Below, piece after piece: positions 168 through 32,232 of a stretch of 32,421 bases of DNA. Source of the DNA: a virus. Location of the stretch: the UHGV virus genome UHGV-0019613; one strand, 5' to 3'. Numbering within the stretch: position 1 is the first letter of the stretch; the number at the start of each line of letters is the position of its first letter. Made by a program: the position numbers and the translations under genes. The notes under the pieces are model-generated. The model was given only the letters and a program-made list of their open reading frames with translations. It had not been told where the DNA came from and did no database searches.

Positions 168-1163
168 TTATGGACGCATTATGGACATTCCTGACACCGG
201 GTTAAGAGTCACTGCATCTTGTAAGAAATCCGGTGCAAAGTGTGCGTAGGTCATAGTTTGCTGAATGTTAGAATGACCCAGGATGCGCTGCAATGTGATT
301 ATGTTACCTCCATTCATTATAAAATGTGTGGCAAATGTATGCCTCAAAACATGCACTGCCTGTCCGTCAGGTAAATCGGGTTTTACTTCCCTGAGAGCGT
401 TGCGCACTTTGTAGTAACTGGCATTAAAAAGCCTGCCTGAATTTTTGGTCTTGATCCGTTTAATCAGGTCCTGTGAAACGGGAATTGTCCTGCGCTTTCC
501 GTTTTTAGTTTTCATAAACGTAACCATCTGGTTAATGATGTGTTCAGCTTTTAAATTAGACACTTCACTCCAGCGTCCACCAGTAGAAAGGCAGACCAGA
601 GTCGCATTTAATTCATCACCATCGAGCATGGATAACAGCCGTGTAATCTCTTCACTGGACAAAAAAGCCATTTCTGTAACAGCTTCACGTAATCGCTTAA
701 CCTCACGGAACGGGTTGTGAGAATGGTATTCACCGGCGTCAATTAACTTGGTGAACATCCCGCTCATTATTGCCAGATGCCGATTTACGCTGGCTGGTTT
801 TAGACCATCGTTCATCATTACAACGCGATAATCAGTTATCGTTTTCTTTGTTAGCTGGTCAGCTCTGGACACTCCCATTTCTGCAAATTTGGCGATTATT
901 GTCGTCAAACGCCCCCGTTCAATATCTCCACGCTCATGTGATTTTCCGTGATATATCCACCATCTGCCTAACAACTCTGTAAGAGTTCGGCGGTCGGCTG
1001 GCTTCTCCAGCCACTCTTTGTTGTGGTAGTTAACCAGTACATGACGTTCGAATGCTTGAGCTTCACCTTTAGTTTTAAATTTCCGCCTGATACGTTTTCC
1101 ATCTGCACCCTGCGGTCTGACGTCCACTTCATAACGACCATCATCGAGCTTTTTAATAGACAT
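168..1163 (-). CDS. int: Tyrosine site-specific integrase (P2 Int family)
   Basis: 331-aa ORF with N-terminus MSIKKLDDGRYEVDVRP and C-terminal catalytic region HVLRHTFATHF...LGHSNIQQTMTYAHF (R-H-R-Y type); GGAGGG RBS upstream of ATG; first gene inside the att repeat as in P2. Confidence 0.9.
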   Translation of the reverse strand: MSIKKLDDGRYEVDVRPQGADGKRIRRKFKTKGEAQAFERHVLVNYHNKEWLEKPADRRTLTELLGRWWIYHGKSHERGDIERGRLTTIIAKFAEMGVSRADQLTKKTITDYRVVMMNDGLKPASVNRHLAIMSGMFTKLIDAGEYHSHNPFREVKRLREAVTEMAFLSSEEITRLLSMLDGDELNATLVCLSTGGRWSEVSNLKAEHIINQMVTFMKTKNGKRRTIPVSQDLIKRIKTKNSGRLFNASYYKVRNALREVKPDLPDGQAVHVLRHTFATHFIMNGGNIITLQRILGHSNIQQTMTYAHFAPDFLQDAVTLNPVSGMSIMRP

Positions 1164-1256: not shown

Positions 1257-1568
1257 TCAGCCAGTCTTTTGGTCTGAGTGGTGCAAGGTTGTTGAGTCTT
1301 GCCCAATGTGCGCGAGCGCCGGGGCTATTTGTCCGCCAGCGGGATCAGTTTCATCAAACATGAACCAGTCACGGTACTTGCGAAATCTTTCTGGCTTGAA
1401 AAATTTCATGCCTGCGTCAAAAGACATCTTTACTTTTCCCTGCTCATATCCAGCATAGGTGTTGTAGTTAATTCCAGTTAATTCAGCAACTTGCTTCCTT
1501 GTCATTCTTTCTGACTCCCGAATAAGTGCGAGTTTCTCTGCTTGAGATGTGATTTGTGTATTTGACAT
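1257..1568 (-). CDS. C: Immunity repressor, P2 C-like (HTH)
   Basis: About 103 aa from the internal ATG at 1568; HTH segment MTRKQVAELTGINYNTY; C-terminal GQIAPALAH motif resembles P2 C; sits between int and cox as in P2. Start codon choice is uncertain. Confidence 0.7.
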   Translation of the reverse strand: MSNTQITSQAEKLALIRESERMTRKQVAELTGINYNTYAGYEQGKVKMSFDAGMKFFKPERFRKYRDWFMFDETDPAGGQIAPALAHIGQDSTTLHHSDQKTG

Positions 1569-2210: not shown

Positions 2211-2707
2211 CAGTGATGACGCTCAATCTCGTTGAAAAACAACCAGCAACTATGCGCCGGATAATTGGTAAGCATCTTGCCGTCCCTCGCTGGCAGGAGA
2301 CATGTGATTATTATAATCAGATGATGGAGCGCGAACGGCTAACGGTTTGCTTCCATGCGCAGTTAAAACAGCGTCATGCAACGATGCGTTTTGAAGAAAT
2401 GAACGACGTCGAACGTGAACGGCTGGTTTGTGCAATTGATGAATTGCGTGGGGCATTCTCAAAACGCCGTCAGGTCGGTGCAAGTGAGTATGCATATATT
2501 AGCTTTTTAACTGTCAGTCAGCGCCGTACTTTATTTATGCACGCACGACTGACAGAAAAAGAATTTAACCAGCCATACTGGCGAATTAATGAAGAGTCAT
2601 GTTACTGGCGTGATGCTTTATTCCGTGCATTACGTGAATTATTCAGTCTGTTTGAATATGCACCGACAATTCTGACGTCGGTAAAACCAGAGCAATATCT
2701 GCATTAA
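2207..2707 (+). CDS. B: Replication protein B-like (P2 gene B position, helicase-loader role in P2)
   Basis: 166 aa from ATG 2207 with GGAGGG RBS 7 nt upstream; same length and position as P2 B; no sequence-level confirmation possible here. Confidence 0.5.
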   Translation: MTVMTLNLVEKQPATMRRIIGKHLAVPRWQETCDYYNQMMERERLTVCFHAQLKQRHATMRFEEMNDVERERLVCAIDELRGAFSKRRQVGASEYAYISFLTVSQRRTLFMHARLTEKEFNQPYWRINEESCYWRDALFRALRELFSLFEYAPTILTSVKPEQYLH

Positions 2708-2770
2708 GTAATTAACCAAAGTTTTTAACGCACTTAATTGTGCGGGGCTTCTTTTTGCCTGGAGAAAGTC

Positions 2771-2983
2771 ATGCATATAGTTTCTGAAAATCAGTGCGGT
2801 AAATACGCATTAATGCTGCAACAGGCCAGAACCGAAGCACAGGCCGATGCAGCAACGCGCATTTCGTCTCATCTTGATGCCATGATTCGCCACATCACAA
2901 AGGCGGAGTTATCCCGCGTGGAGATAGTCGAGTTGCTCAGTCAGGAGTCTGCCAAATTCCATAATCTAGGACTCAATAAATAA
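2771..2983 (+). CDS. Hypothetical small early protein
   Basis: 70-aa ORF with GGAGAAA RBS before ATG 2771; in the early operon between B and A. Confidence 0.5.
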
Positions 2984-2997
2984 CAGGAAAGTTGGAG

Positions 2998-3243
2998 ATG
3001 ACAAATACAAAATGGTTCAGGAAACACTTAACAGATTATCAACTTTCATTACTTAAAAAATTAGATGACAAGACTCCACTACATCCTTCAAGCGATGTCT
3101 TCCGCTCCTGTCCTAGTCGTGTGGAAAAAGCATTTATAGCAATGGGGAAATGGGGGCTTGTGACCAAATCAAGAGAAGGTTTCTGTATTACCGATAATGG
3201 CCGGGAAATGATTGATTCTGCGGAGAGGGCATATAGCGAATGA
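2998..3243 (+). CDS. Hypothetical small early protein (AT-rich)
   Basis: 81 aa from ATG 2998 with AGGAAAG RBS; by-eye AT-rich relative to neighbours. Confidence 0.5.
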   Translation: MTNTKWFRKHLTDYQLSLLKKLDDKTPLHPSSDVFRSCPSRVEKAFIAMGKWGLVTKSREGFCITDNGREMIDSAERAYSE

Positions 3244-3530
3244 AAAATATATTGCTTAATAACTGGCTGAAGATTTCAGTCATGAAAAATGGTGATTTGT
3301 CGCTAGCTGATATTAAACGCGATAAAAACACTGGGGATATGGTGGAATCAACTATAGCCATTTATGCGGATAAATTAAATCTCCTGTCTGATGTGGTTAA
3401 TTTACTTGTTAAACGCGCTGTATTTCATAAGCAAATTTCATCCGTGGATGAACTGACAAAATTAACGACAGAAATCGCCAGCTATTGCGCTGATGAATTT
3501 AAGAAACTGAACGACAAAAGGAGCTGGTAA
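3240..3530 (+). CDS. Hypothetical small early protein (AT-rich)
   Basis: 96-aa ORF; ATG overlaps previous stop (ATGA); AT-rich codon usage unlike the P2 backbone. Confidence 0.5.
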   Translation: MKNILLNNWLKISVMKNGDLSLADIKRDKNTGDMVESTIAIYADKLNLLSDVVNLLVKRAVFHKQISSVDELTKLTTEIASYCADEFKKLNDKRSW

Positions 3531-3754
3531 TGCCGGACAACGTGGATTTTATTCAGGAACAACAGGCTGAATTACTGGAGCGCCAGATTAACGCGGCAAG
3601 GGTAAAACATTGCGGTGCTTCTGCGCTGGTTTGCGAAGAGTGTGATGCGCCAATACCTGCTGCCCGTCGTGCGGCTTATCCATCAGCCACGCGTTGTGTT
3701 TCCTGTCAGTTAGTCTTTGAAGCAAAAAACAAGCATTACCGGAGAACGGCATGA
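3530..3754 (+). CDS. TraR/DksA-family C4 zinc-finger protein
   Basis: 74 aa; CxxC...CxxC pattern (CEECD ... CVSC); start overlaps previous stop (TAATG); such proteins are typical of P2-like early operons. Confidence 0.7.
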   Translation: MPDNVDFIQEQQAELLERQINAARVKHCGASALVCEECDAPIPAARRAAYPSATRCVSCQLVFEAKNKHYRRTA

Positions 3755-4026
3755 GTATTCGTATTGAAATTGGCGAACGTTATGTCGTTACCAGTGACAG
3801 CTTTCAGTTTATTCTCCACGAGAAAAAGAGAGCTGAAAGCGGTAAAAACGCCGGTCAGGAATGGCTGGCGGTGGTTGGTTATTACCCGAAATTAAGCCAG
3901 CTCGTTTCCGGCCTGATGCATCACGATATTCTGACCGGAAGCGCAAAGTCTTTTGCTGATTTAAACGCGCAGGTTGAGCAACTCAGCAGGCGTTGTTCAG
4001 AGGCATTTGGCTCATATGGCCGTTAA
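3751..4026 (+). CDS. Hypothetical early protein
   Basis: 91-aa ORF with GGAGA RBS; ATGA overlap with preceding gene. Confidence 0.5.
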   Translation: MSIRIEIGERYVVTSDSFQFILHEKKRAESGKNAGQEWLAVVGYYPKLSQLVSGLMHHDILTGSAKSFADLNAQVEQLSRRCSEAFGSYGR

Positions 4027-6286
4027 AGCCTCCGGGCGTTTTGTCCCTCCGTCAGCATTTGCCGCAGGCACCGGTAAGGCGTTTACCGGTGCTTATGCAT
4101 GGAATGCGCCACGCGAGGCTGTCGGGCGCGAAAGACCCCTTACACGTGACGAGATGCGTCAGGTGCAAGGTGTTTTATCCACGATTAATCGCCTGCCTTA
4201 CTTTTTGCGCTCGCTGTTTACTTCACGCTATGACTACATCCGGCGCAATAAAAGCCCGTTACACGGGTTTTATTTCCTCACATCCACTTTTCAGCGTCGT
4301 TTATGGCCCCGCATTGAGCGTGTGAATCAGCGCCATGAAATGAACACCGACGCGTCGTTGCTGTTTCTGGCAGAGCGTGACCACTATGCGCGCCTGTCGG
4401 GAATGAATGACAAGGAGCTGAAAAAGTTTGCTGCCCGTATCTCATCGCAGCTTTTCATGATGTATGAGGAACTCTGCGATGCCTGGGTTGATGCACATGG
4501 CGAAAAAGAATCGCTGTTTACGGATGAGGCGCAGGCTCACCTCTATGGTCATGTTGCTGGCGCTGCACGTGCTTTCAATATTTCCCCGCTCTACTGGAAA
4601 AAATACCGTAAAGGGCAGATGACCACGAGGCAGGCATATTCTGCCATTGCCCGTCTGTTTAACGATGAGTGGTGGACTCATCAGCTTAAAGGCCAGCGTA
4701 TGCGCTGGCATGAGGCGTTACTGATTGCTGTCGGGGAGGTCAATAAAGACCGTTCTCCTTATGCCAGTAAACATGCCATTCGTGATGTGCGTGCGCGCCG
4801 CCAGGCAAATCTGGAATTTCTTAAATCGTGTGACCTCGAAAACAGGGAAACCGGCGAACGCATCGACCTTATCAGTAAGGTGATGGGCAGTATTTCTAAT
4901 CCTGAAATTCGCCGGATGGAGCTGATGAACACCATTGCCGGTATTGAGCGTTACGCCGCCGCTGAGGGTGATGTGGGGATGTTTATCACGCTGACCGCGC
5001 CGTCAAAGTATCACCCTACACGTCAGGTTGGAAAAGGTGAAAGTAAAACCGTCCAGCTTAATCACAGCTGGAACGATGAGGCATTTAATCCAAAGGATGC
5101 GCAGCGTTATCTCTGCCGTATCTGGAGCCTGATGCGCACGGCATTCAAGGATAATGATTTACAGGTCTACGGTTTGCGAGTCGTCGAGCCACACCACGAC
5201 GGAACGCCGCACTGGCATATGATGCTTTTTTGTAATCCACGCCAGCGTAACCAGATTATCGACATCATGCGTCGCTATGCGCTCAAAGAGGATGGCGACG
5301 AAAGAGGAGCCGCGCGAAACCGTTTTCAGGCAAAACATCTTAATCGGGGCGGTGCTGCGGGGTATATCGCGAAATACATCTCAAAAAATATCGACGGCTA
5401 TGCACTGGATGGGCAGCTCGATAACGATACCGGCAGACCGCTGAAAGATACTGCCGCGGCTGTTACCGCATGGGCGTCAACGTGGCGCATTCCGCAATTT
5501 AAAACGGTTGGCCTGCCGACAATGGGGGCTTACCGTGAACTACGCAAATTGCCTCGCGGCGTCAGCATTGCTGATGAGTTTGACGAGCGCGTCGAGGCTG
5601 CACGCGCCGCCGCAGACAGTGGTGATTTTGCGCTGTATATCAGCGCGCAGGGTGGGGCAAATGTCCCGCGCGATTGTCAGACTGTCAGGGTCGCCCGTAG
5701 TCCGTCGGATGAAGTTAACGAGTACGAGGAAGAAGTCGAGAGAGTGGTCGGCATTTACGCGCCGCATCTCGGCGCGCGTCATATTCATATCACCAGAACG
5801 ACGGACTGGCGCATTGTTCCGAAAGTGCCGGTCGTTGAGCCTTTGACTTTAAAAAGCGGCATCGCCGCGCCTCGGAGTCCTGTCAATAACTGTGGAAAGC
5901 TCACCGGTAGTGATGTTTCGTTACCGGCTCCCACACCTTCTGAGCACGCCGCCGCAGTGCTTAATCTGGTTGATGACGGTGTTATCGAATGGAATGACCA
6001 GGAGGTCGTGAGGGCGCTCAGGGGCGCATTAAAACACGACCTGAGAACACCAAACCGTCAGCAAAGAAGCGGAAGCCCGTTAAAACCGCATGAAATAGCG
6101 CCATCGGCCAGACTGACCCGGTCGGAACGAATGCAAATTACCCGTATCCGCGTTGACCTTGCTCAGAACGGTATCAGGCCGCAGCGATGGGAGCTTGAGG
6201 CGCTGGCGCGTGGGGCAACTGTAAATTACGACGGGAGAAGCTTCAGTTATCCTGTTATATGTGATTGGAGAGCGTATGAATTATGA
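4016..6286 (+). CDS. A: Rolling-circle replication initiation endonuclease (P2 gpA family)
   Basis: About 756 aa; HUH-type motif TPHWHMMLF and downstream tyrosine-rich region AGYIAKYISKNIDGY; size and position match P2 A. Start could be the TTG at 3974 or the ATG at 4016. Confidence 0.85.
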   Translation: MAVKASGRFVPPSAFAAGTGKAFTGAYAWNAPREAVGRERPLTRDEMRQVQGVLSTINRLPYFLRSLFTSRYDYIRRNKSPLHGFYFLTSTFQRRLWPRIERVNQRHEMNTDASLLFLAERDHYARLSGMNDKELKKFAARISSQLFMMYEELCDAWVDAHGEKESLFTDEAQAHLYGHVAGAARAFNISPLYWKKYRKGQMTTRQAYSAIARLFNDEWWTHQLKGQRMRWHEALLIAVGEVNKDRSPYASKHAIRDVRARRQANLEFLKSCDLENRETGERIDLISKVMGSISNPEIRRMELMNTIAGIERYAAAEGDVGMFITLTAPSKYHPTRQVGKGESKTVQLNHSWNDEAFNPKDAQRYLCRIWSLMRTAFKDNDLQVYGLRVVEPHHDGTPHWHMMLFCNPRQRNQIIDIMRRYALKEDGDERGAARNRFQAKHLNRGGAAGYIAKYISKNIDGYALDGQLDNDTGRPLKDTAAAVTAWASTWRIPQFKTVGLPTMGAYRELRKLPRGVSIADEFDERVEAARAAADSGDFALYISAQGGANVPRDCQTVRVARSPSDEVNEYEEEVERVVGIYAPHLGARHIHITRTTDWRIVPKVPVVEPLTLKSGIAAPRSPVNNCGKLTGSDVSLPAPTPSEHAAAVLNLVDDGVIEWNDQEVVRALRGALKHDLRTPNRQQRSGSPLKPHEIAPSARLTRSERMQITRIRVDLAQNGIRPQRWELEALARGATVNYDGRSFSYPVICDWRAYEL

Positions 6287-6379: not shown

Positions 6380-7435
6380 TTAATTTTTAAATATGGATTG
6401 TATGTATTCTATAGTGCTATCTTTAGCTCTGATGTCTTTTAAAGTGTTATTTATGAAATCTATTATTCTGTCATTACTTAATAGTGGCGATAACGCATAA
6501 CATGTTGTTGTGAATGTCATGACGTCACTAAAGCTTAGTGAAACACCTTTTGTCGCAGCGTTCTCAATCGCAAGAGACTCATCAATATCTAAGTTTGTTG
6601 CTCTTGGCCCTTTAAGGAAGATAACTTTTGAAATCCCGGATGCAGATGCTTTTGAAACGGCGTGATTAACATCTTGATAATTAAATGGTTTGTCTTTCAC
6701 TTCTATAGAAAGGAAAACTATATCATCATGATATACATCTATGTCCAGTATCTCTTTTGAGGAGCTACCGGCCTGATTGACGGGATGTGCTTTTATTATC
6801 CATCCTCTTTGTTCACCTAATAAATGTAACGAAATTGCGGCAGCAATCGCGCATGTTTCTCCATCACAAGGATGAGATATAATATTATAAATAATCTTAT
6901 GGAAATCAAAATTAATTGAGTTCGGCGTTATAACTCTATTGGTTCGCTGTAGGGTAAAATATAATGCAATAACAAGCATTTCATAAGCTAAGGTTTGGGT
7001 TGTTGCTGCATGTAATATATCAATTGAAAGTTGTTGTAAAACCTTATCATTTCCTCTGCGCACAGGGTTATCAGAGGAGTGGAGCATGTAACGAGCTGGT
7101 TTATTTAGAAATGGCTCATTTGATGCGCCTAACTTACCCTCTAAAAATGGGCCTTCTACTTTGCCTACTATTACCGAATGACATAAACTCCTTGCATCAT
7201 AGGCTCCGTCTACGGGGGCATTAGCTTGTAAAGCCAGAGGGTTAACTCTAGGGTCTGTTGCTTTTGCAAGTAAACCAGTAATAAGTATATATCTGTATGT
7301 AAGGTGGGTGCCTAAAATTACATTTTGAATGGAGACCCATTGATTATTTGTTTTGTAATCAGTTAATTTTTTTGCATCGTTGATTGCATTTATAATTACA
7401 TTATAGGCTTGCTCATGATTTACTAATACTTTCAT
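6380..7435 (-). CDS. Candidate Type II restriction endonuclease (PD-(D/E)xK-like)
   Basis: 351-aa ORF in AT-rich cargo; D-x7-E-x-K-like motif in YHDDIVFLSIEVKDK; co-oriented with and overlapped by an upstream small HTH gene and divergent from a C5-methyltransferase; AAGGA RBS before ATG 7435. Confidence 0.55.
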   Translation of the reverse strand: MKVLVNHEQAYNVIINAINDAKKLTDYKTNNQWVSIQNVILGTHLTYRYILITGLLAKATDPRVNPLALQANAPVDGAYDARSLCHSVIVGKVEGPFLEGKLGASNEPFLNKPARYMLHSSDNPVRRGNDKVLQQLSIDILHAATTQTLAYEMLVIALYFTLQRTNRVITPNSINFDFHKIIYNIISHPCDGETCAIAAAISLHLLGEQRGWIIKAHPVNQAGSSSKEILDIDVYHDDIVFLSIEVKDKPFNYQDVNHAVSKASASGISKVIFLKGPRATNLDIDESLAIENAATKGVSLSFSDVMTFTTTCYALSPLLSNDRIIDFINNTLKDIRAKDSTIEYIQSIFKN

Positions 7436-7682
7436 AGGTGTCCTTTAGTAAGATATCCATTGGTAGACCTAATCGGCTTGCAACCACCTCTAATAATTCA
7501 AATAGTTCTAAAGCATCTAATCGCCTTTCAAAGCTTTCGATTTTAGATATATCTGATTGTGATAATCCTAGAAAAATGGCCAATTCTGACTGCGAAAGAG
7601 AAGCTTCTTTGCGTAGTTTGGTGAGAAGCTGGACTAGGCACCTGTATCTATGATCATGTATAGTTGGTTGTCGTTTTGCCAT
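7413..7682 (-). CDS. Small HTH controller (C-protein-like, XRE family) of the R-M module
   Basis: About 90 aa from ATG 7682 (alternative ATG at 7727); HTH segment LSQSELAIFLGLSQSDISKIE; its 3' end overlaps the endonuclease start by 23 nt, the arrangement typical of C-regulated R-M operons. Confidence 0.55.
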   Translation of the reverse strand: MAKRQPTIHDHRYRCLVQLLTKLRKEASLSQSELAIFLGLSQSDISKIESFERRLDALELFELLEVVASRLGLPMDILLKDTYESISKS

Positions 7683-7702
7683 GTGGTTTAGAAGGTGATT
7701 GA

Positions 7703-8857
7703 TTGTGTGTCGATCCTTACCTATCATTGGTTTTATTCCAAAATCGAATAATTGGTGCTAAAGAAGTGAACAAAATTTCAGCGGTGAGCTTATTTACTGG
7801 GGCAGGAGGGATGGATGTCGGTTTCTCTAATGCCGGGTTCCGAACAGTTTGGGCCAATGATATAGATAAGGATGCATGTGATACATTTAAGCTTAATCAT
7901 GAATCACCTGTTTTTTGTGGTGATATTGATGAGATGCTAAGTGAATTGTCTGGGCTGAAAAATATAGGTTGTGTTTTTGGTGGGCCTCCATGCCAAGGAT
8001 TTTCTGTGGCAGGGAAAATGGACGCTCATGATCCACGTAGTAAGCTGGTTATGTCATTCATGCGGGCGGTGGATATAATTCAACCAGAATGCTTTGTTAT
8101 GGAGAATGTTAAGGCTTTAGCACAGTTGTCCAAATTTGAACCAGTTAGGTGTGAACTGTTTAAGATGGCTGAAAAGTCAGGCTATCGTTCAGCCTTGCTG
8201 GTGCTGAATTCTAAAGATTTTGGCGTTCCTCAGAATAGGGAACGTATGTTTTTTATAGGGTTTCGTTCCGAAAATGATGTGAAACGAGTTGAGGCGGCGA
8301 TAAAAAAATACCAATATCTTTCGCCAACAGTTGGTGAGATTATTCGGCCTTTAGGGCGAGCGGGTAATCCAAATAATTCAAGAGTCTGTAATGCAAGGAT
8401 TACAAATGCTGCTAAGCCAGTATTACGGAAGTCACCTTACGCGGGAATGATGTTTAACGGGCAGGGAAGACCAATTAACCCGAATGGGTATGCTTCAACT
8501 ATAGCTGCTTCTATGGGGGGGAATAGGACACCAATTATTGATGAAGAACACCTTTATGATGGCTCAACAAGTTATGTTGAGACTTATCATAATCATCTAA
8601 TGAATGGTGGTGAGCCAAAAGATATGCACGATGTACCTAGTCGTTTACGTCGACTAACGATAGATGAGGCTCTTTTGATTCAAACATTCCCGAGTAATTA
8701 TGTCTTTGTGGGGAAAAATTCGTCAATTTGGCGTCAGATAGGGAATGCTGTGCCTTGTAAATTGGCGCAGGCTGTTGCTGCAGGGGTTTTGGATGTCCTT
8801 ACTGGTAAAACTATTAATGTTCAAAAGAGTCAAACAGAGTTGAGTTTGAATTCGTAA
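7703..8857 (+). CDS. DNA (cytosine-5)-methyltransferase
   Basis: Canonical m5C MTase motifs: FTGAGGMDVGF (motif I), GGPPCQGFS (motif IV), ENV (motif VI), QNRERMFFIG (motif VIII), GNAVP (motif X); start is a TTG at 7703 with AAGGTGA RBS, exact start uncertain. Confidence 0.85.
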   Translation: MCVDPYLSLVLFQNRIIGAKEVNKISAVSLFTGAGGMDVGFSNAGFRTVWANDIDKDACDTFKLNHESPVFCGDIDEMLSELSGLKNIGCVFGGPPCQGFSVAGKMDAHDPRSKLVMSFMRAVDIIQPECFVMENVKALAQLSKFEPVRCELFKMAEKSGYRSALLVLNSKDFGVPQNRERMFFIGFRSENDVKRVEAAIKKYQYLSPTVGEIIRPLGRAGNPNNSRVCNARITNAAKPVLRKSPYAGMMFNGQGRPINPNGYASTIAASMGGNRTPIIDEEHLYDGSTSYVETYHNHLMNGGEPKDMHDVPSRLRRLTIDEALLIQTFPSNYVFVGKNSSIWRQIGNAVPCKLAQAVAAGVLDVLTGKTINVQKSQTELSLNS

Positions 8858-23817: not shown

Positions 23818-25119
23818 ATGCATACTGGCTTTAAGGGAACTTATGACGCACTTTTGAGGCTTGAGAAGGCTATAGAAGGTCTGACCATCCAAGATGGGTT
23901 GATGACGAATACTCTTGGAGTTGAGGTTCCGGCAATAACATCAGATGACCTAATTGACCAAATAATTTGCATTATTAACAAGCTGAAAGCATATGGTGAT
24001 ATTGAACTAACTGAAAAAGAAATTGTCGCTTATTCATCTCTCCCTGAAAAAATTGACACACTCATTAAAGTTCACGTCCCAGAGTTCTCAGGCGTTAACT
24101 CCGCACGAGCTATATCTTCATATATGCTAACACTGGCATATGTTGACCATTTCTTGGATGAATCGTTTACATGGAAGCGGTTGGATAATGCTAATTTACT
24201 TCCTAGAAATTTAAGCAGAAAAATTAAAAGCATGGAGGCGAGAATTAACAAGATTGATCCTGAGATGGATGCTCTTGAGAGTAAAGTTAAAACGATTAAT
24301 GATGCTCATGTAGCTGCAGAAAATATACCTATAGACTTAAATGAATTAAAGGAATACAACAAAGAAGCATCTGATTTAAAGGAGAAGATATCTAAAACTC
24401 ATTTCAGTTTAGAGTCCCAAGAAGAAGCTGCAAAAAAAATTATTGATGAGTTGCAAGAAAAAAATATAGAGGCTGCCCGGTATCTGGCTCTTTGCGAAGA
24501 GGCTATTAGGGCTTCAACATCGAAAGGCTTAGCAGGAGCATTTGAAATAAAAGCAGATAAGCTTAACCGAAGTATCCAACTATGGGTTGCCGGTTTGGCA
24601 GTTGCTTTGGGGCTTGGTGGTTTAGTCGGATATGAAAGATTGAAAGTTCTTTCTGGGGTTTTGAATAACCCAAATCCCAGTGCGGTAGTAATACTCACTC
24701 AATTACTATTATCTGTTTTTAGCATAGGCGCCCCTCTTTGGTTTGCTTGGATGTCTACAAAACAAATTAATCAACGTTTCAAACTCGCAGAGGATTATGC
24801 TTATAAAGCTTCTGTGGCTAAAGCGTATGAGGGATACAAAAATGAGGCATGCAAGGTATCAGATGGAGAGTTCGAAAAACGCTTATTTGATTCTGCGCTA
24901 AGTCGACTTGAAGAGGCTCCATTGCGTTTTGTGAAAGATGAAGATCATACTACTCCTTGGACAGAAATGCTTAATTCTAAGTCGTTTCAAAAATTCTTAG
25001 ATGCCTCCATTGATAATGTAAATTATGTTAAAGGGATTATAAGTAAGAAAGGCCAATCAGCAGCTAAAGCAAGCAATGATGAGGTTAATCACATTGAAAA
25101 ACTAAAGAATGAAGCTTGA
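23818..25119 (+). CDS. Uncharacterised cargo protein: coiled-coil N-terminal region, two central transmembrane helices, soluble C-terminal domain; candidate defence/abortive-infection effector
   Basis: 433-aa uninterrupted ORF in a by-eye AT-rich island at the P2 Z/fun locus; hydrophobic stretches about residues 254-272 (IQLWVAGLAVALGLGGLVGY) and 288-312 (AVVILTQLLLSVFSIGAPLWFAWM); TATAAT 27 nt upstream; tandem terminators downstream; no Walker A or nuclease motif recognised. Confidence 0.75.
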   Translation: MHTGFKGTYDALLRLEKAIEGLTIQDGLMTNTLGVEVPAITSDDLIDQIICIINKLKAYGDIELTEKEIVAYSSLPEKIDTLIKVHVPEFSGVNSARAISSYMLTLAYVDHFLDESFTWKRLDNANLLPRNLSRKIKSMEARINKIDPEMDALESKVKTINDAHVAAENIPIDLNELKEYNKEASDLKEKISKTHFSLESQEEAAKKIIDELQEKNIEAARYLALCEEAIRASTSKGLAGAFEIKADKLNRSIQLWVAGLAVALGLGGLVGYERLKVLSGVLNNPNPSAVVILTQLLLSVFSIGAPLWFAWMSTKQINQRFKLAEDYAYKASVAKAYEGYKNEACKVSDGEFEKRLFDSALSRLEEAPLRFVKDEDHTTPWTEMLNSKSFQKFLDASIDNVNYVKGIISKKGQSAAKASNDEVNHIEKLKNEA

Positions 25120-31932: not shown

Positions 31933-32013
31933 TGTTTTGTTTTTATCTGTTTGTTTTGTAAGGATAAATTAACTAAAATGGCACCATCAACAAAACCGGA
32001 AGAGGTGCTCGCG

Positions 32014-32232
32014 ATGTTTCATTGTCCTTTATGCCAGCATGCCGCACATGCGCGTACAAGCCGCTATATCACTGACACGACAAAAGAGCGTTATCATCAG
32101 TGCCAGAACGTGAATTGCAGCGCCACGTTCATCACTTATGAGTCGGTACAGCGATACATCGTGAAGCCGGGAGAAGTCCACGCCGTAAGGCCGCACCCGT
32201 TGCCATCAGGGCAGCAAATTATGTGGATGTAA
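32014..32232 (+). CDS. ogr: Zinc-finger late-gene transcription activator Ogr
   Basis: 72 aa from ATG 32014 (GGAAGAGGTG RBS); CPLC...C..NC zinc-binding pattern; last gene before attR as in P2. Confidence 0.8.
   Translation: MFHCPLCQHAAHARTSRYITDTTKERYHQCQNVNCSATFITYESVQRYIVKPGEVHAVRPHPLPSGQQIMWM

What the first reader, a model, noticed from the sequence alone, without database searches (positions are those of the whole stretch)
2990..3530. AT-rich two-gene cassette inside the early replication operon
Two consecutive small ORFs (2998-3243 and 3240-3530) are visibly more AT-rich than flanking early genes. They are translationally coupled to their neighbours (overlapping ATGA junction at 3240) and encode proteins with no recognisable motif. 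Small early-expressed accessory proteins of this kind are typical candidates for host takeover, anti-defence or superinfection-exclusion functions, and the compositional contrast suggests later acquisition.
Basis: partly seen in the sequence, partly recalled or inferred. Interest (0 to 1): 0.45.

Follow-up and report, generated by a model that had tools for sequence, protein, structure and literature searches.

The report
Rare winged-helix gene beside P2 orf81
In this P2-like prophage, the second of the two flagged small genes is the ordinary, conserved P2 early gene orf81, and the first is a rare optional gene for a small winged-helix, probably DNA-binding, protein of untested function carried by about 3% of P2-like prophages.

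Summary
Both ORFs exist exactly as described (2998-3243, 3240-3530, ATGA overlap at 3240). The region is moderately AT-rich: 38% GC against 44-51% in the neighbouring early genes. It is not a two-gene acquired cassette.

ORF2 is P2 orf81 (Pfam DUF5405, E 4.6e-27). It is present in all 75 Peduovirus phage records, and P2's own copy is just as AT-rich (37% GC).

Compared with P2, the real difference is a 426-bp mosaic block (2950-3375). It holds the 3' tail of orf80, one extra 81-codon gene (ORF1), and a divergent 5' half of orf81.

ORF1 occurs in 54 of 5,426 complete E. coli genomes. That is 56 of about 1,834 P2-like prophage copies. It is also in 2 of 75 phage records.

Homologues 45% identical to ORF1 sit in the same slot, directly after orf80, in Lelliottia-type P2-like phages. 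There too the gene is optional.

The most likely role is a dispensable, early-expressed DNA-binding (or RNA-polymerase-binding) modulator. This is inferred, not shown. Interest is modest.

The parts
2729..2757 (+). Terminator-like hairpin plus T-run after gene B. It corresponds to P2's annotated 'putative rho-independent terminator' upstream of orf80.
   Evidence: stem 2729-2744 followed by a T-rich tail. One search gives the P2 annotation. The sequence is identical to P2 in the alignment.
2771..2983 (+). orf80 homologue (DUF2732, 70 aa). Its last ~11 codons (from 2950) belong to the mosaic block and differ from P2.
   Evidence: Pfam DUF2732 E 6.7e-9 and phrog_128. It is 89% identical to P2 Orf80, with a different C-terminal tail.
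2950..3375 (+). Mosaic (recombinant) block relative to P2: the orf80 tail, ORF1, and the 5' half of orf81.
   Evidence: Identity to P2 is 95.6% for 2700-2949 and 62% for 3244-3375. ORF1 is absent from P2. Identity is 95.5% for 3376-3530 and 98.9% for 3531-3620.
2985..2991 (+). Shine-Dalgarno-like AGGAAAG, 6 nt upstream of the ORF1 ATG.
   Evidence: Read directly from the sequence.
2998..3243 (+). ORF1: accessory 81-aa basic protein (pI 9.0) with a stand-alone winged-helix fold. It belongs to phrog_11056, of unknown function, and is absent from P2.
   Evidence: - Family assignment and rarity.
- Selection.
3240..3243 (+). ATGA overlap: the ORF1 stop (TGA) overlaps the orf81 start (ATG).
3240..3530 (+). 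ORF2 = P2 orf81 (DUF5405, 96 aa). The N-terminal ~45 residues are a different allele from P2. The C-terminal ~50 residues match P2 almost exactly (one difference near the C-terminus).
   Evidence: Pfam DUF5405 E 4.6e-27 and phrog_265. Alignments. Found in all 75 Peduovirus records.
3530..3754 (+). orf82 homologue: a TraR/DksA-type zinc-finger protein. P2 Orf82 has been shown to bind RNA polymerase.
   Evidence: Pfam zf-dskA_traR E 2e-10; TIGR02419 at 76 bits. Experimental evidence in PMC9239242.
3751..4026 (+). orf83 homologue, a second DUF5405 paralogue. It overlaps the start of replication gene A.
   Evidence: Pfam DUF5405 E 6.7e-13. Alignment.

Best explanation
**What the window is.** It is a complete P2-like (Peduovirus) prophage. 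The flagged stretch lies in the Pe-driven early operon, between the replication genes B and A.

**ORF2** is simply P2 orf81 (DUF5405). It is a core Peduovirus early gene that is intrinsically AT-rich.

**ORF1** is an optional 81-codon gene.
- It came in by homologous recombination with a more divergent P2-like phage.
- It is part of a 426-bp block whose crossovers lie in the 3' end of orf80 and in the middle of orf81.
- It has no promoter or terminator of its own. It is read from the early polycistronic mRNA and is translationally coupled to orf81 through the ATGA overlap.
- It therefore should be made only during lytic development or induction.

**The ORF1 product** is a small, basic, single-domain winged-helix protein. 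The residues best conserved between its two subfamilies lie in the helix-turn-helix segment: FRSCPS-x-V-x-KA, meaning the turn plus the start of the recognition helix.

**Most likely role.** It binds DNA, probably as a dimer, and fine-tunes transcription or another DNA transaction of phage or host early in infection. It is non-essential.

**Shown versus inferred.**
- Shown: identity of the genes, synteny, rarity, mosaic boundaries, purifying selection, and the predicted fold.
- Inferred: expression from Pe, DNA binding, and a regulatory role.
For: **Gene identities and synteny with P2:**

**Mosaic boundaries:**

**Rarity and strict co-inheritance with the window-type orf81 5' half:**
- 54 genomes carry ORF1, and 54 carry the window-type 5' half at >=95% identity.
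- The orf81-3'/orf82 segment occurs at 1,834 places in 1,600 genomes.
- In 80 IMG/VR loci with near-identical orf83, 3 carry the block, 76 have the P2 architecture and 1 was unresolved. No other insertion type was seen.

**A real gene under constraint:**
- The within-clade non-synonymous/synonymous ratio is 0.21. Neighbours are orf80 0.18, orf81 0.15, orf82 0.18 and orf83 0.13.
- dN/dS is 0.25 between the two 74-aa homologues.
- 45% identical homologues sit in the same position after orf80 in Lelliottia and metagenomic P2-like phages.
- They are optional there too: Enterobacter phage ENT4 lacks the gene at the same junction.

**Fold:**
- The AlphaFold2 model has pLDDT 80 and pTM 0.66, with H1-b1-H2-H3-b2-b3 topology.
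- Weak sequence matches all fall on the H3-wing segment.

**Other points:**
- All members are basic, pI 9.0-9.8.
- There is no internal promoter, terminator or repeat.
Against: - No wHTH family is matched above its curated threshold. The best is HTH_45 at 14.4 bits against a cutoff of 25.5. The fold rests on a model built from only four sequences.
- The basic wing residues of the Escherichia type (K57, R59) are acidic in the 74-aa type (E, D). That is unusual for a wing that contacts DNA.
- C38, conserved between the subfamilies, is Trp in several Escherichia alleles.
- No candidate operator was found in or near the block.
- Some winged-helix domains bind proteins rather than DNA, for example the T4 MotA N-terminal domain.
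- About 3 independent disrupted copies (IS1 insertion, A-run frameshift) appear among 33 carrier loci fetched, which include a few duplicate contigs. The gene is dispensable in prophages.
Confidence: 0.5

Rival explanations
1. ORF1 is a protein-binding winged-helix factor. It would act like the N-terminal domain of T4 MotA, which docks on the C-terminus of sigma-70. It would bind host RNA polymerase, sigma, or another host or phage protein. It might cooperate with the neighbouring TraR-like Orf82 to reprogram host transcription, or it might block a host defence protein.
For: - The PHROG MotA-like profile matches at E 0.003, and MotA entries appear among the BFVD hits.
- The wing is acidic in the 74-aa subfamily.
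- ORF1 sits two genes upstream of a proven RNA-polymerase-binding protein.
- In Lelliottia-type phages it occupies the slot held by orf81 and orf82 in P2.
Against: - Many DNA-binding MarR-type proteins score the same or higher, with similar percent identity. The MotA similarity is therefore not specific.
- There is no MotA C-terminal domain, and no AsiA-like partner is expected in a P2-like phage.
- All sequence matches are far below significance.
- PADLOC gave nothing. That library covers defence systems, not anti-defence proteins.
Confidence: 0.25
2. ORF1 is functionally tied to Orf81. The block carries ORF1 together with a matched N-terminal allele of Orf81 because the two proteins interact, for example as an accessory pair acting in P2 DNA replication between B and A.
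For: - The same number of complete E. coli genomes (54) carries ORF1 and the window-type orf81 5' half at >=95% identity.
- All carrier loci examined have both.
- The two genes are translationally coupled by the ATGA overlap.
Against: - Physical linkage within one 426-bp recombination block explains the co-inheritance without any interaction.
- The 45% identical homologues occur in phages with no orf81 at all.
- Similar orf81 N-terminal sequences occur without ORF1 (loci L003 and L004).
- The PHROG label 'replication initiation protein' for DUF5405 is an untested annotation.
Confidence: 0.1
3. ORF1 is a decaying hitch-hiker with no current function. It persists only because the block recombines between related prophages.
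For: - It is present in only about 3% of P2-like prophages.
- Copies disrupted by IS1 or by frameshift exist.
- A conserved Cys is replaced by Trp in several alleles.
Against: - The non-synonymous/synonymous ratio of 0.21 matches the neighbouring conserved early genes.
- dN/dS is 0.25 in the sister subfamily, and synonymous sites are saturated between the subfamilies while a 45% identical protein with an intact hydrophobic core is retained.
- The gene is intact in two isolated, plaque-forming Yersinia/E. coli phages.
- 28 of 33 carrier loci have an intact, ungapped copy.
Confidence: 0.1

Closest known systems
Bacteriophage P2 Orf81 (NP_046792; Pfam DUF5405), closest to ORF2
   Same: - Same position, between orf80 and the TraR-like orf82.
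- Same family: DUF5405 at 94.7 bits.
- 77-79% identical overall, and the C-terminal ~50 residues match almost exactly (one difference near the C-terminus).
- Same low GC: 37.3% in P2 against 35.7% here.
-.
   Different: The N-terminal ~45 residues are another allele. The DNA is 62% identical there, and the sequence is closer to the orf81 of more distant P2-like prophages (loci L003, L004) than to P2. The function of Orf81 itself is unknown.
MarR-type and other small prokaryotic winged-helix DNA-binding domains (e.g. E. coli MarR-operator complex 5h3r, Sco5413 4b8x, SSO2273 2x4h, H. salinarum RosR 6ez1), closest to ORF1
   Same: - Predicted H1-b1-H2-H3-b2-b3 core.
- The H3-wing sequence pattern '..G(L/Y)V....G..IT..G' aligns with SSO2273.
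- The protein is basic.
   Different: - Only 81 aa. It lacks the N- and C-terminal helices that form the MarR dimer and ligand pocket.
- No Pfam MarR or other HTH hit passes threshold.
- The wing-tip basic residues are not conserved across the family.
N-terminal (activation) domain of T4 MotA (1bja/1i1s)
   Same: - Phage-encoded and expressed early.
- Similar size (95 aa).
- Weak PHROG MotA-like match, E 0.003.
   Different: - No MotA C-terminal DNA-binding domain.
- Not from a T4-like phage, and no AsiA-based sigma appropriation context.
- The similarity is no better than to generic wHTH proteins.
P2 Cox (a winged-helix excisionase/repressor in the same operon)
   Same: A small (91 aa) winged-helix DNA-binding protein encoded in the same early operon (PMC3936717, listed).
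   Different: No detectable homology: hhalign probability 0.2%. There is no Pfam Phage_Cox hit for ORF1, and the window has its own cox gene at 1643-2029.
Phage 'morons' and the P2 cargo hotspots (Z/fun, tin/old)
   Same: Presence/absence polymorphism among otherwise near-identical phages, and AT-richer than the neighbours.
   Different: - No promoter or terminator of its own.
- Located inside the early lytic operon rather than in the known cargo hotspots.
- Only one alternative gene content was seen at this site in 80 sampled relatives.

Membership tests
P2 Orf81 / Pfam DUF5405 (ORF2) | Significant match to the family profile, above the curated threshold | tested here: met
   PF17399 E 4.6e-27, 94.7 bits against a cutoff of 21.6, covering profile positions 1-88 of 88. 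phrog_265 E 2.4e-49.
P2 Orf81 / Pfam DUF5405 (ORF2) | Orthologous position in the P2 early operon: after orf80, and overlapping the start of the TraR-like orf82 | tested here: met
   The P2 annotation and the DNA alignment show collinearity. The DNA is 95.5% identical from 3376 onward.
Winged helix-turn-helix fold (ORF1) | H1-b1-H2-H3-b2-b3 topology, with strong structural matches to solved wHTH domains | tested here: met
   - AlphaFold2 model (4-sequence alignment): pLDDT 80, pTM 0.66.
- Elements: H13-25, b28, H33-35, H39-51, b55-58, b61-64, H66-80.
- This rests on a predicted structure, not a solved one.
Winged helix-turn-helix fold (ORF1) | Sequence match to a curated wHTH family above threshold | tested here: not met
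   - HTH_45 scores 14.4 bits (cutoff 25.5) and wHTH-PRTase_assc scores 14.2 (cutoff 27).
- The homologues P0001 and P0009 give no hits.
- PDB profile search gives E 1.6 to SSO2273.
- NCBIfam gives nothing.
MarR family transcription regulators (ORF1) | A protein of about 140 aa in which N- and C-terminal helices flank the wHTH and form the dimer interface and ligand pocket | tested here: not met
   ORF1 is 81 aa (74 aa in the sister subfamily). Only a short N-terminal helix and one C-terminal helix flank the core. There is no Pfam MarR hit.
T4 MotA-type middle-transcription activators (ORF1) | Two-domain protein: an N-terminal sigma-70-binding domain plus a C-terminal 'double wing' DNA-binding domain | tested here: not met
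   Only phrog_1345 profile positions 49-87 of 210 are matched, at E 0.003. The protein is too short to hold a C-terminal domain. The structural similarity covers the N-terminal domain only.
T4 MotA-type middle-transcription activators (ORF1) | Binding to the C-terminal region of sigma-70 | not testable with these tools
   This needs a pull-down or two-hybrid assay, or a complex prediction. No multimer prediction tool was available.
Phage moron (ORF1) | Autonomous transcription unit: its own promoter and terminator flanking an accessory gene | tested here: not met
   No sigma-70-like promoter or terminator-like site lies in 2950-3375 on the + strand. The gene is tightly packed and overlaps orf81.
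Phage moron (ORF1) | Presence/absence polymorphism between close relatives, with deviating base composition | tested here: met
   - ORF1 is in 3 of 80 close relatives, 54 of 5,426 E. coli genomes, and L027 but not ENT4.
- GC is 40% against 44-46% in the neighbours here. It is 36% against 42-47% in L006 and L027.
Known anti-phage defence components (PADLOC) | Significant match to a defence-system protein model | tested here: not met
   Only noise was found: LmuC at E 0.05 for ORF1 and BrxC at E 0.018 for ORF2.

The most novel reading that the evidence does not exclude
ORF1 founds an uncharacterised, portable family of phage early winged-helix proteins. Instead of binding DNA, they would dock on host RNA polymerase or sigma-70 in the manner of the MotA N-terminal domain, or on a host immunity protein. 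They would form an exchangeable 'host-transcription takeover' slot in P2-like early operons, alongside or in place of the TraR-like Orf82.
Probability: 0.15. Interest if true: 0.55.

Novelty: new member of a known kind. Interest (0 to 1): 0.27.

Why it matters
P2 is a classic model phage, yet the small genes between B and A (orf80-83) remain unexplained apart from the TraR-like Orf82. This analysis shows three things:

- That stretch has at least three natural gene contents: with or without the winged-helix gene, with or without orf81-orf82, and with or without orf82 alone.
- One optional member is a constrained, basic winged-helix protein.
- Natural isogenic-like pairs exist that differ only by a 426-bp block.

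That gives a cheap experimental handle on what these early accessory genes do. Candidate roles are transcription control, host takeover, and interplay with satellites or defences. If ORF1 is only a minor DNA-binding modulator, the result is mainly a corrected annotation: ORF2 is orf81, and ORF1 is a 'winged-helix protein' instead of 'hypothetical'.

Tried and rejected
- **Two-gene foreign cassette:** rejected. ORF2 is P2 orf81 with the same GC in P2.
- **Variable cargo hotspot at the orf80/orf81 junction:** rejected. Of 80 close relatives, 76 show the P2 architecture, 3 show the window architecture and 1 was unresolved. No other insertion type was seen.
- **Linkage of ORF1 to a particular immunity region or to the SacI-type R-M cargo:** rejected. 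Carriers have at least 4 int/C/cox types, and only one other fetched locus (L028) shares the R-M.
- **Homology of ORF1 to Cox or to Orf81:** rejected. hhalign probability is 0.2% for each.
- **Structured RNA in the region:** no Rfam hit anywhere in the window.
- **Internal promoter, terminator or operator-like repeats in 2700-3600:** nothing convincing.
- **Defence-protein models (PADLOC) and NCBIfam:** no hits for ORF1 or ORF2.
- **PDB by sequence:** nothing significant for ORF1, Orf81 or Orf83.
- **Exhaustive HMMER search of 1.84 billion representatives:** one true distant homologue. The 231-aa low-complexity hit P0008 was dismissed as spurious.
- **Profile search:** it also recovered the Lelliottia protein P0009, which belongs to that same 74-aa subfamily.
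- **Metagenome and GTDB genome scans:** only Escherichia-type copies.
- **Literature:** no paper on DUF5405 or on this gene.
- **First single-sequence model of ORF1:** pLDDT was only 58, so its Foldseek matches were treated as a lead only.

Full report
**1. Context**

The 32.4-kb window is a complete P2-like (Peduovirus) prophage.
- Integrase lies at 168-1163(-), an HTH repressor at 1257-1550(-) and cox at 1643-2029.
- An orf78-like ORF ends at 2210, and replication gene B lies at 2201-2707.
- Five small ORFs follow, then replication gene A (to 6286). Late genes run to an ogr-like ORF at 31951-32232.
- Megablast of 2700-4100 finds 75 phage records, all Peduovirus. Phage P2 itself is about 96% identical over 72% of the query. 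Two Yersinia pestis-plated phages, vB_YpM_115 and vB_YpM_117, cover 100% at 98.3%.

**2. Checking the observation**

- ORF1 runs 2998-3243 (ATG; 81 aa). An AGGAAAG Shine-Dalgarno sequence lies at 2985-2991, 14 nt after the orf80 stop.
- ORF2 runs 3240-3530 (96 aa).
- The ATGA overlap at 3240-3243 is real. So are the TAATG (3528-3532) and ATGA (3751-3754) overlaps further on.

The AT-richness is real but modest.
- GC is 38.1% for 2990-3530, at about the 6th percentile of 541-nt windows of this 51%-GC window.
- ORF1 is 40.2% GC and ORF2 is 35.7%. By comparison, cox, B and orf80 are 44-46%, orf82 is 51%, orf83 is 47% and A is 53%.

The 'no recognisable motif' statement fails for ORF2. It hits Pfam DUF5405 at 94.7 bits, against a gathering cutoff of 21.6.

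**3. What ORF2 is**

ORF2 is P2 orf81.
- P2 has the order B - terminator - orf80 (DUF2732) - orf81 - orf82 (TraR/DksA zinc finger) - orf83 - A. The window is collinear with this.
- ORF2 is 77-79% identical to P2 Orf81. Its C-terminal ~50 residues match P2 almost exactly, with one difference near the C-terminus.
- tblastn finds the gene in all 75 Peduovirus records.
- The orf81-3'/orf82 segment occurs at 1,834 places in 1,600 of 5,426 complete E. coli genomes.
- P2's own orf81 is 37.3% GC. The low GC of ORF2 is therefore an inherited property of orf81, not a sign of recent acquisition.
- Orf81 and Orf83 both belong to DUF5405, so they are paralogues flanking orf82.
- The function of DUF5405 is unknown. 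The PHROG label 'replication initiation protein' is an annotation, not a tested function. No PDB relative was found, and no paper mentions DUF5405.

**4. What really differs from P2**

The alignment with P2 shows a sharply bounded mosaic block, window 2950-3375.
- The flanks are 95.6% identical on the left (2700-2949).
- On the right they are 95.5% (3376-3530) and 98.9% (3531-3620).
- Inside the block, the last ~11 codons of orf80 differ, ORF1 is absent from P2, and the 5' part of orf81 is only 62% identical.
- The window-type Orf81 N-terminus resembles that of more distant P2-like prophages (L003, L004) more than it resembles P2's.

The simplest history is homologous recombination with a divergent P2-like phage, with crossovers in orf80 and in the middle of orf81.

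**5. Distribution of ORF1**

- ORF1 DNA is in 54 of 5,426 complete E. coli genomes (56 places, all chromosomal).
- The window-type orf81 5' half at >=95% identity is found in the same number of genomes, 54.
- That is about 3% of P2-like prophage copies. It is also in 2 of 75 phage records.
- In a sample of 80 IMG/VR loci with near-identical orf83, 76 have the P2 architecture, 3 have the window architecture and 1 could not be resolved. No other insertion type was seen. This is a two-allele polymorphism, not a cargo hotspot.
- Carriers have at least four different int/C/cox types. Only one other fetched locus (L028) shares the window's R-M cargo. The block therefore moves independently of both.
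- Disrupted copies exist: an IS1 insertion with a 9-bp duplication in IHE3034, and a +1 frameshift in an A-run in E. albertii-type copies.

**6. ORF1 is a real, constrained gene with an older history**

The protein family is tiny.
- The word-indexed search of 5.8 billion proteins found only Escherichia copies.
- The exhaustive HMMER search of 1.84 billion representatives added one true distant homologue, P0007 (74 aa, reported at 45-47% identical depending on the tool).
- The profile search also recovered P0009 from Lelliottia, which belongs to that same 74-aa subfamily. IMG/VR added a third copy of that subfamily, L027.

In all of these, the gene sits directly after orf80 in a P2-like early operon.
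- There it is followed directly by the orf83-like DUF5405 gene and A, with no orf81 or orf82.
- The related Enterobacter phage ENT4 lacks the gene at exactly this junction. It is therefore optional in that lineage too.

Selection points to a functional gene.
- Synonymous sites between the two subfamilies are saturated (pS 0.86), while pN is about 0.4.
- Between the two 74-aa genes, dN/dS is 0.25.
- Within the Escherichia clade the normalised non-synonymous/synonymous ratio is 0.21. The neighbours are orf80 0.18, orf81 0.15, orf82 0.18 and orf83 0.13. Gene B is 0.05.

The gene is AT-richer than its neighbours in both lineages: 40% against 44-46% here, and 36% against 42-47% in L006 and L027.

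**7. Fold of ORF1**

- A single-sequence AlphaFold2 model was poor (pLDDT 58) but already had a winged-helix-like topology. Its Foldseek hits were nearly all wHTH proteins, at non-significant E-values.
- With the four-sequence alignment the model reached pLDDT 80 and pTM 0.66. Its elements are H13-25, a strand at 28, H33-35, H39-51, strands 55-58 and 61-64, and H66-80.
- All the weak sequence matches fall on the same recognition-helix-plus-wing segment. They are HTH_45, wHTH-PRTase_assc, the PHROG MotA-like profile, ribosomal protein S19e and SSO2273. None is significant on its own.
- All family members are basic, pI 9.0-9.8.
- The block best conserved between the subfamilies is FRSCPS-x-V-x-KA (residues 35-45). 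In the model this is the turn and the start of the recognition helix.
- Against a simple DNA-binding picture, the wing residues K57 and R59 are E and D in the 74-aa type. C38 is W in several alleles.
- ORF1 is not homologous to Cox or Orf81.

**8. How it most likely works**

No promoter-like or terminator-like site and no notable repeat lies inside the block. There is no Rfam hit.

ORF1 must therefore be expressed as part of the early operon from Pe. P2 annotates a putative terminator after B, so transcription of this stretch would have to read through it. ORF1 is translationally coupled to orf81 through the ATGA overlap.

Expression in the lysogen is therefore unlikely, which argues against superinfection exclusion. 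Both points are inference.

My best estimate is a non-essential, early-expressed winged-helix DNA-binding modulator (confidence about 0.5). The rivals are:
- a protein-binding factor of the MotA N-terminal domain type, acting on RNA polymerase or on a host protein (about 0.25);
- a partner of Orf81 (about 0.1);
- a functionless hitch-hiker (about 0.1).

The neighbouring Orf82 homologue is the only gene of this cluster with experimental data. P2 Orf82 binds the RNA polymerase secondary channel and inhibits rrnB P1 (PMC9239242).

**9. Comparison and novelty**

- ORF2 is already known as P2 orf81, although its function is unknown.
- ORF1 is annotated everywhere as 'hypothetical protein' and belongs to phrog_11056, 'unknown function'. 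No paper was found on it.
- It is a new, very narrow family of a well-known kind: a small phage winged-helix protein.
- It is not a MarR-family or MotA-family member, because it is too short and lacks their defining extra parts. It is not a classical moron, because it has no transcription signals of its own.

**10. Verdict**

Interest is low to moderate (0.27). The value lies in the corrected annotation and in a clean natural polymorphism for probing the unexplained P2 early accessory genes.

Noticed in passing
window 6380-8857: An AT-rich (30-42% GC) type II restriction-modification cargo sits in the tin/old hotspot just after replication gene A.
- SacI-family endonuclease at 6380-7435(-): Pfam RE_SacI E 1.9e-76.
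- Controller-like HTH protein at 7413-7727(-).
- C5 cytosine methyltransferase at 7703-8857(+).
- Only one other fetched ORF1-carrying locus (L028) shares it.
   Followed up: partly
window 23818-25119 (+): A 433-aa ORF lies in an AT-rich stretch (about 38% GC) at the Z/fun cargo hotspot, between the tail-fibre genes and the tail sheath gene. It has no Pfam or PADLOC family, only a weak coiled-coil (Tropomyosin) match. It is a possible uncharacterised defence or cargo gene.
   Followed up: no
window 3240-3530 and 3751-4026: Orf81 and Orf83 both match Pfam DUF5405, although they are only 16% identical. They are distant paralogues flanking the TraR-like orf82. PHROG labels both 'replication initiation protein' without evident experimental basis.
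   Followed up: partly
L004 (E. coli T-HYM1, NZ_CP141767.1) 1477-2051; L006 and L027: Gene content between orf80 and A varies among P2-like prophages.
- T-HYM1 has orf81 followed directly by orf83, with no TraR-like orf82.
- Lelliottia-type phages (L006, L027) lack both orf81 and orf82.
- Enterobacter phage ENT4 has orf80 followed directly by orf83.
   Followed up: partly
L005 (E. coli IHE3034, NC_017628.1) 690-1712; also L003 296-993: IS1 insertions in P2-like early operons.
- One lies inside ORF1 in IHE3034, with a 9-bp target duplication of ORF1 nucleotides 35-43.
- One lies inside gene B in strain 600029.
   Followed up: partly
window 3026 (codon 10 of ORF1): The window's ORF1 has His10, where every other fetched copy has Arg10. 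Several alleles, including phage vB_YpM_115, carry Cys38Trp at a position conserved in the Lelliottia-type homologues.
   Followed up: no
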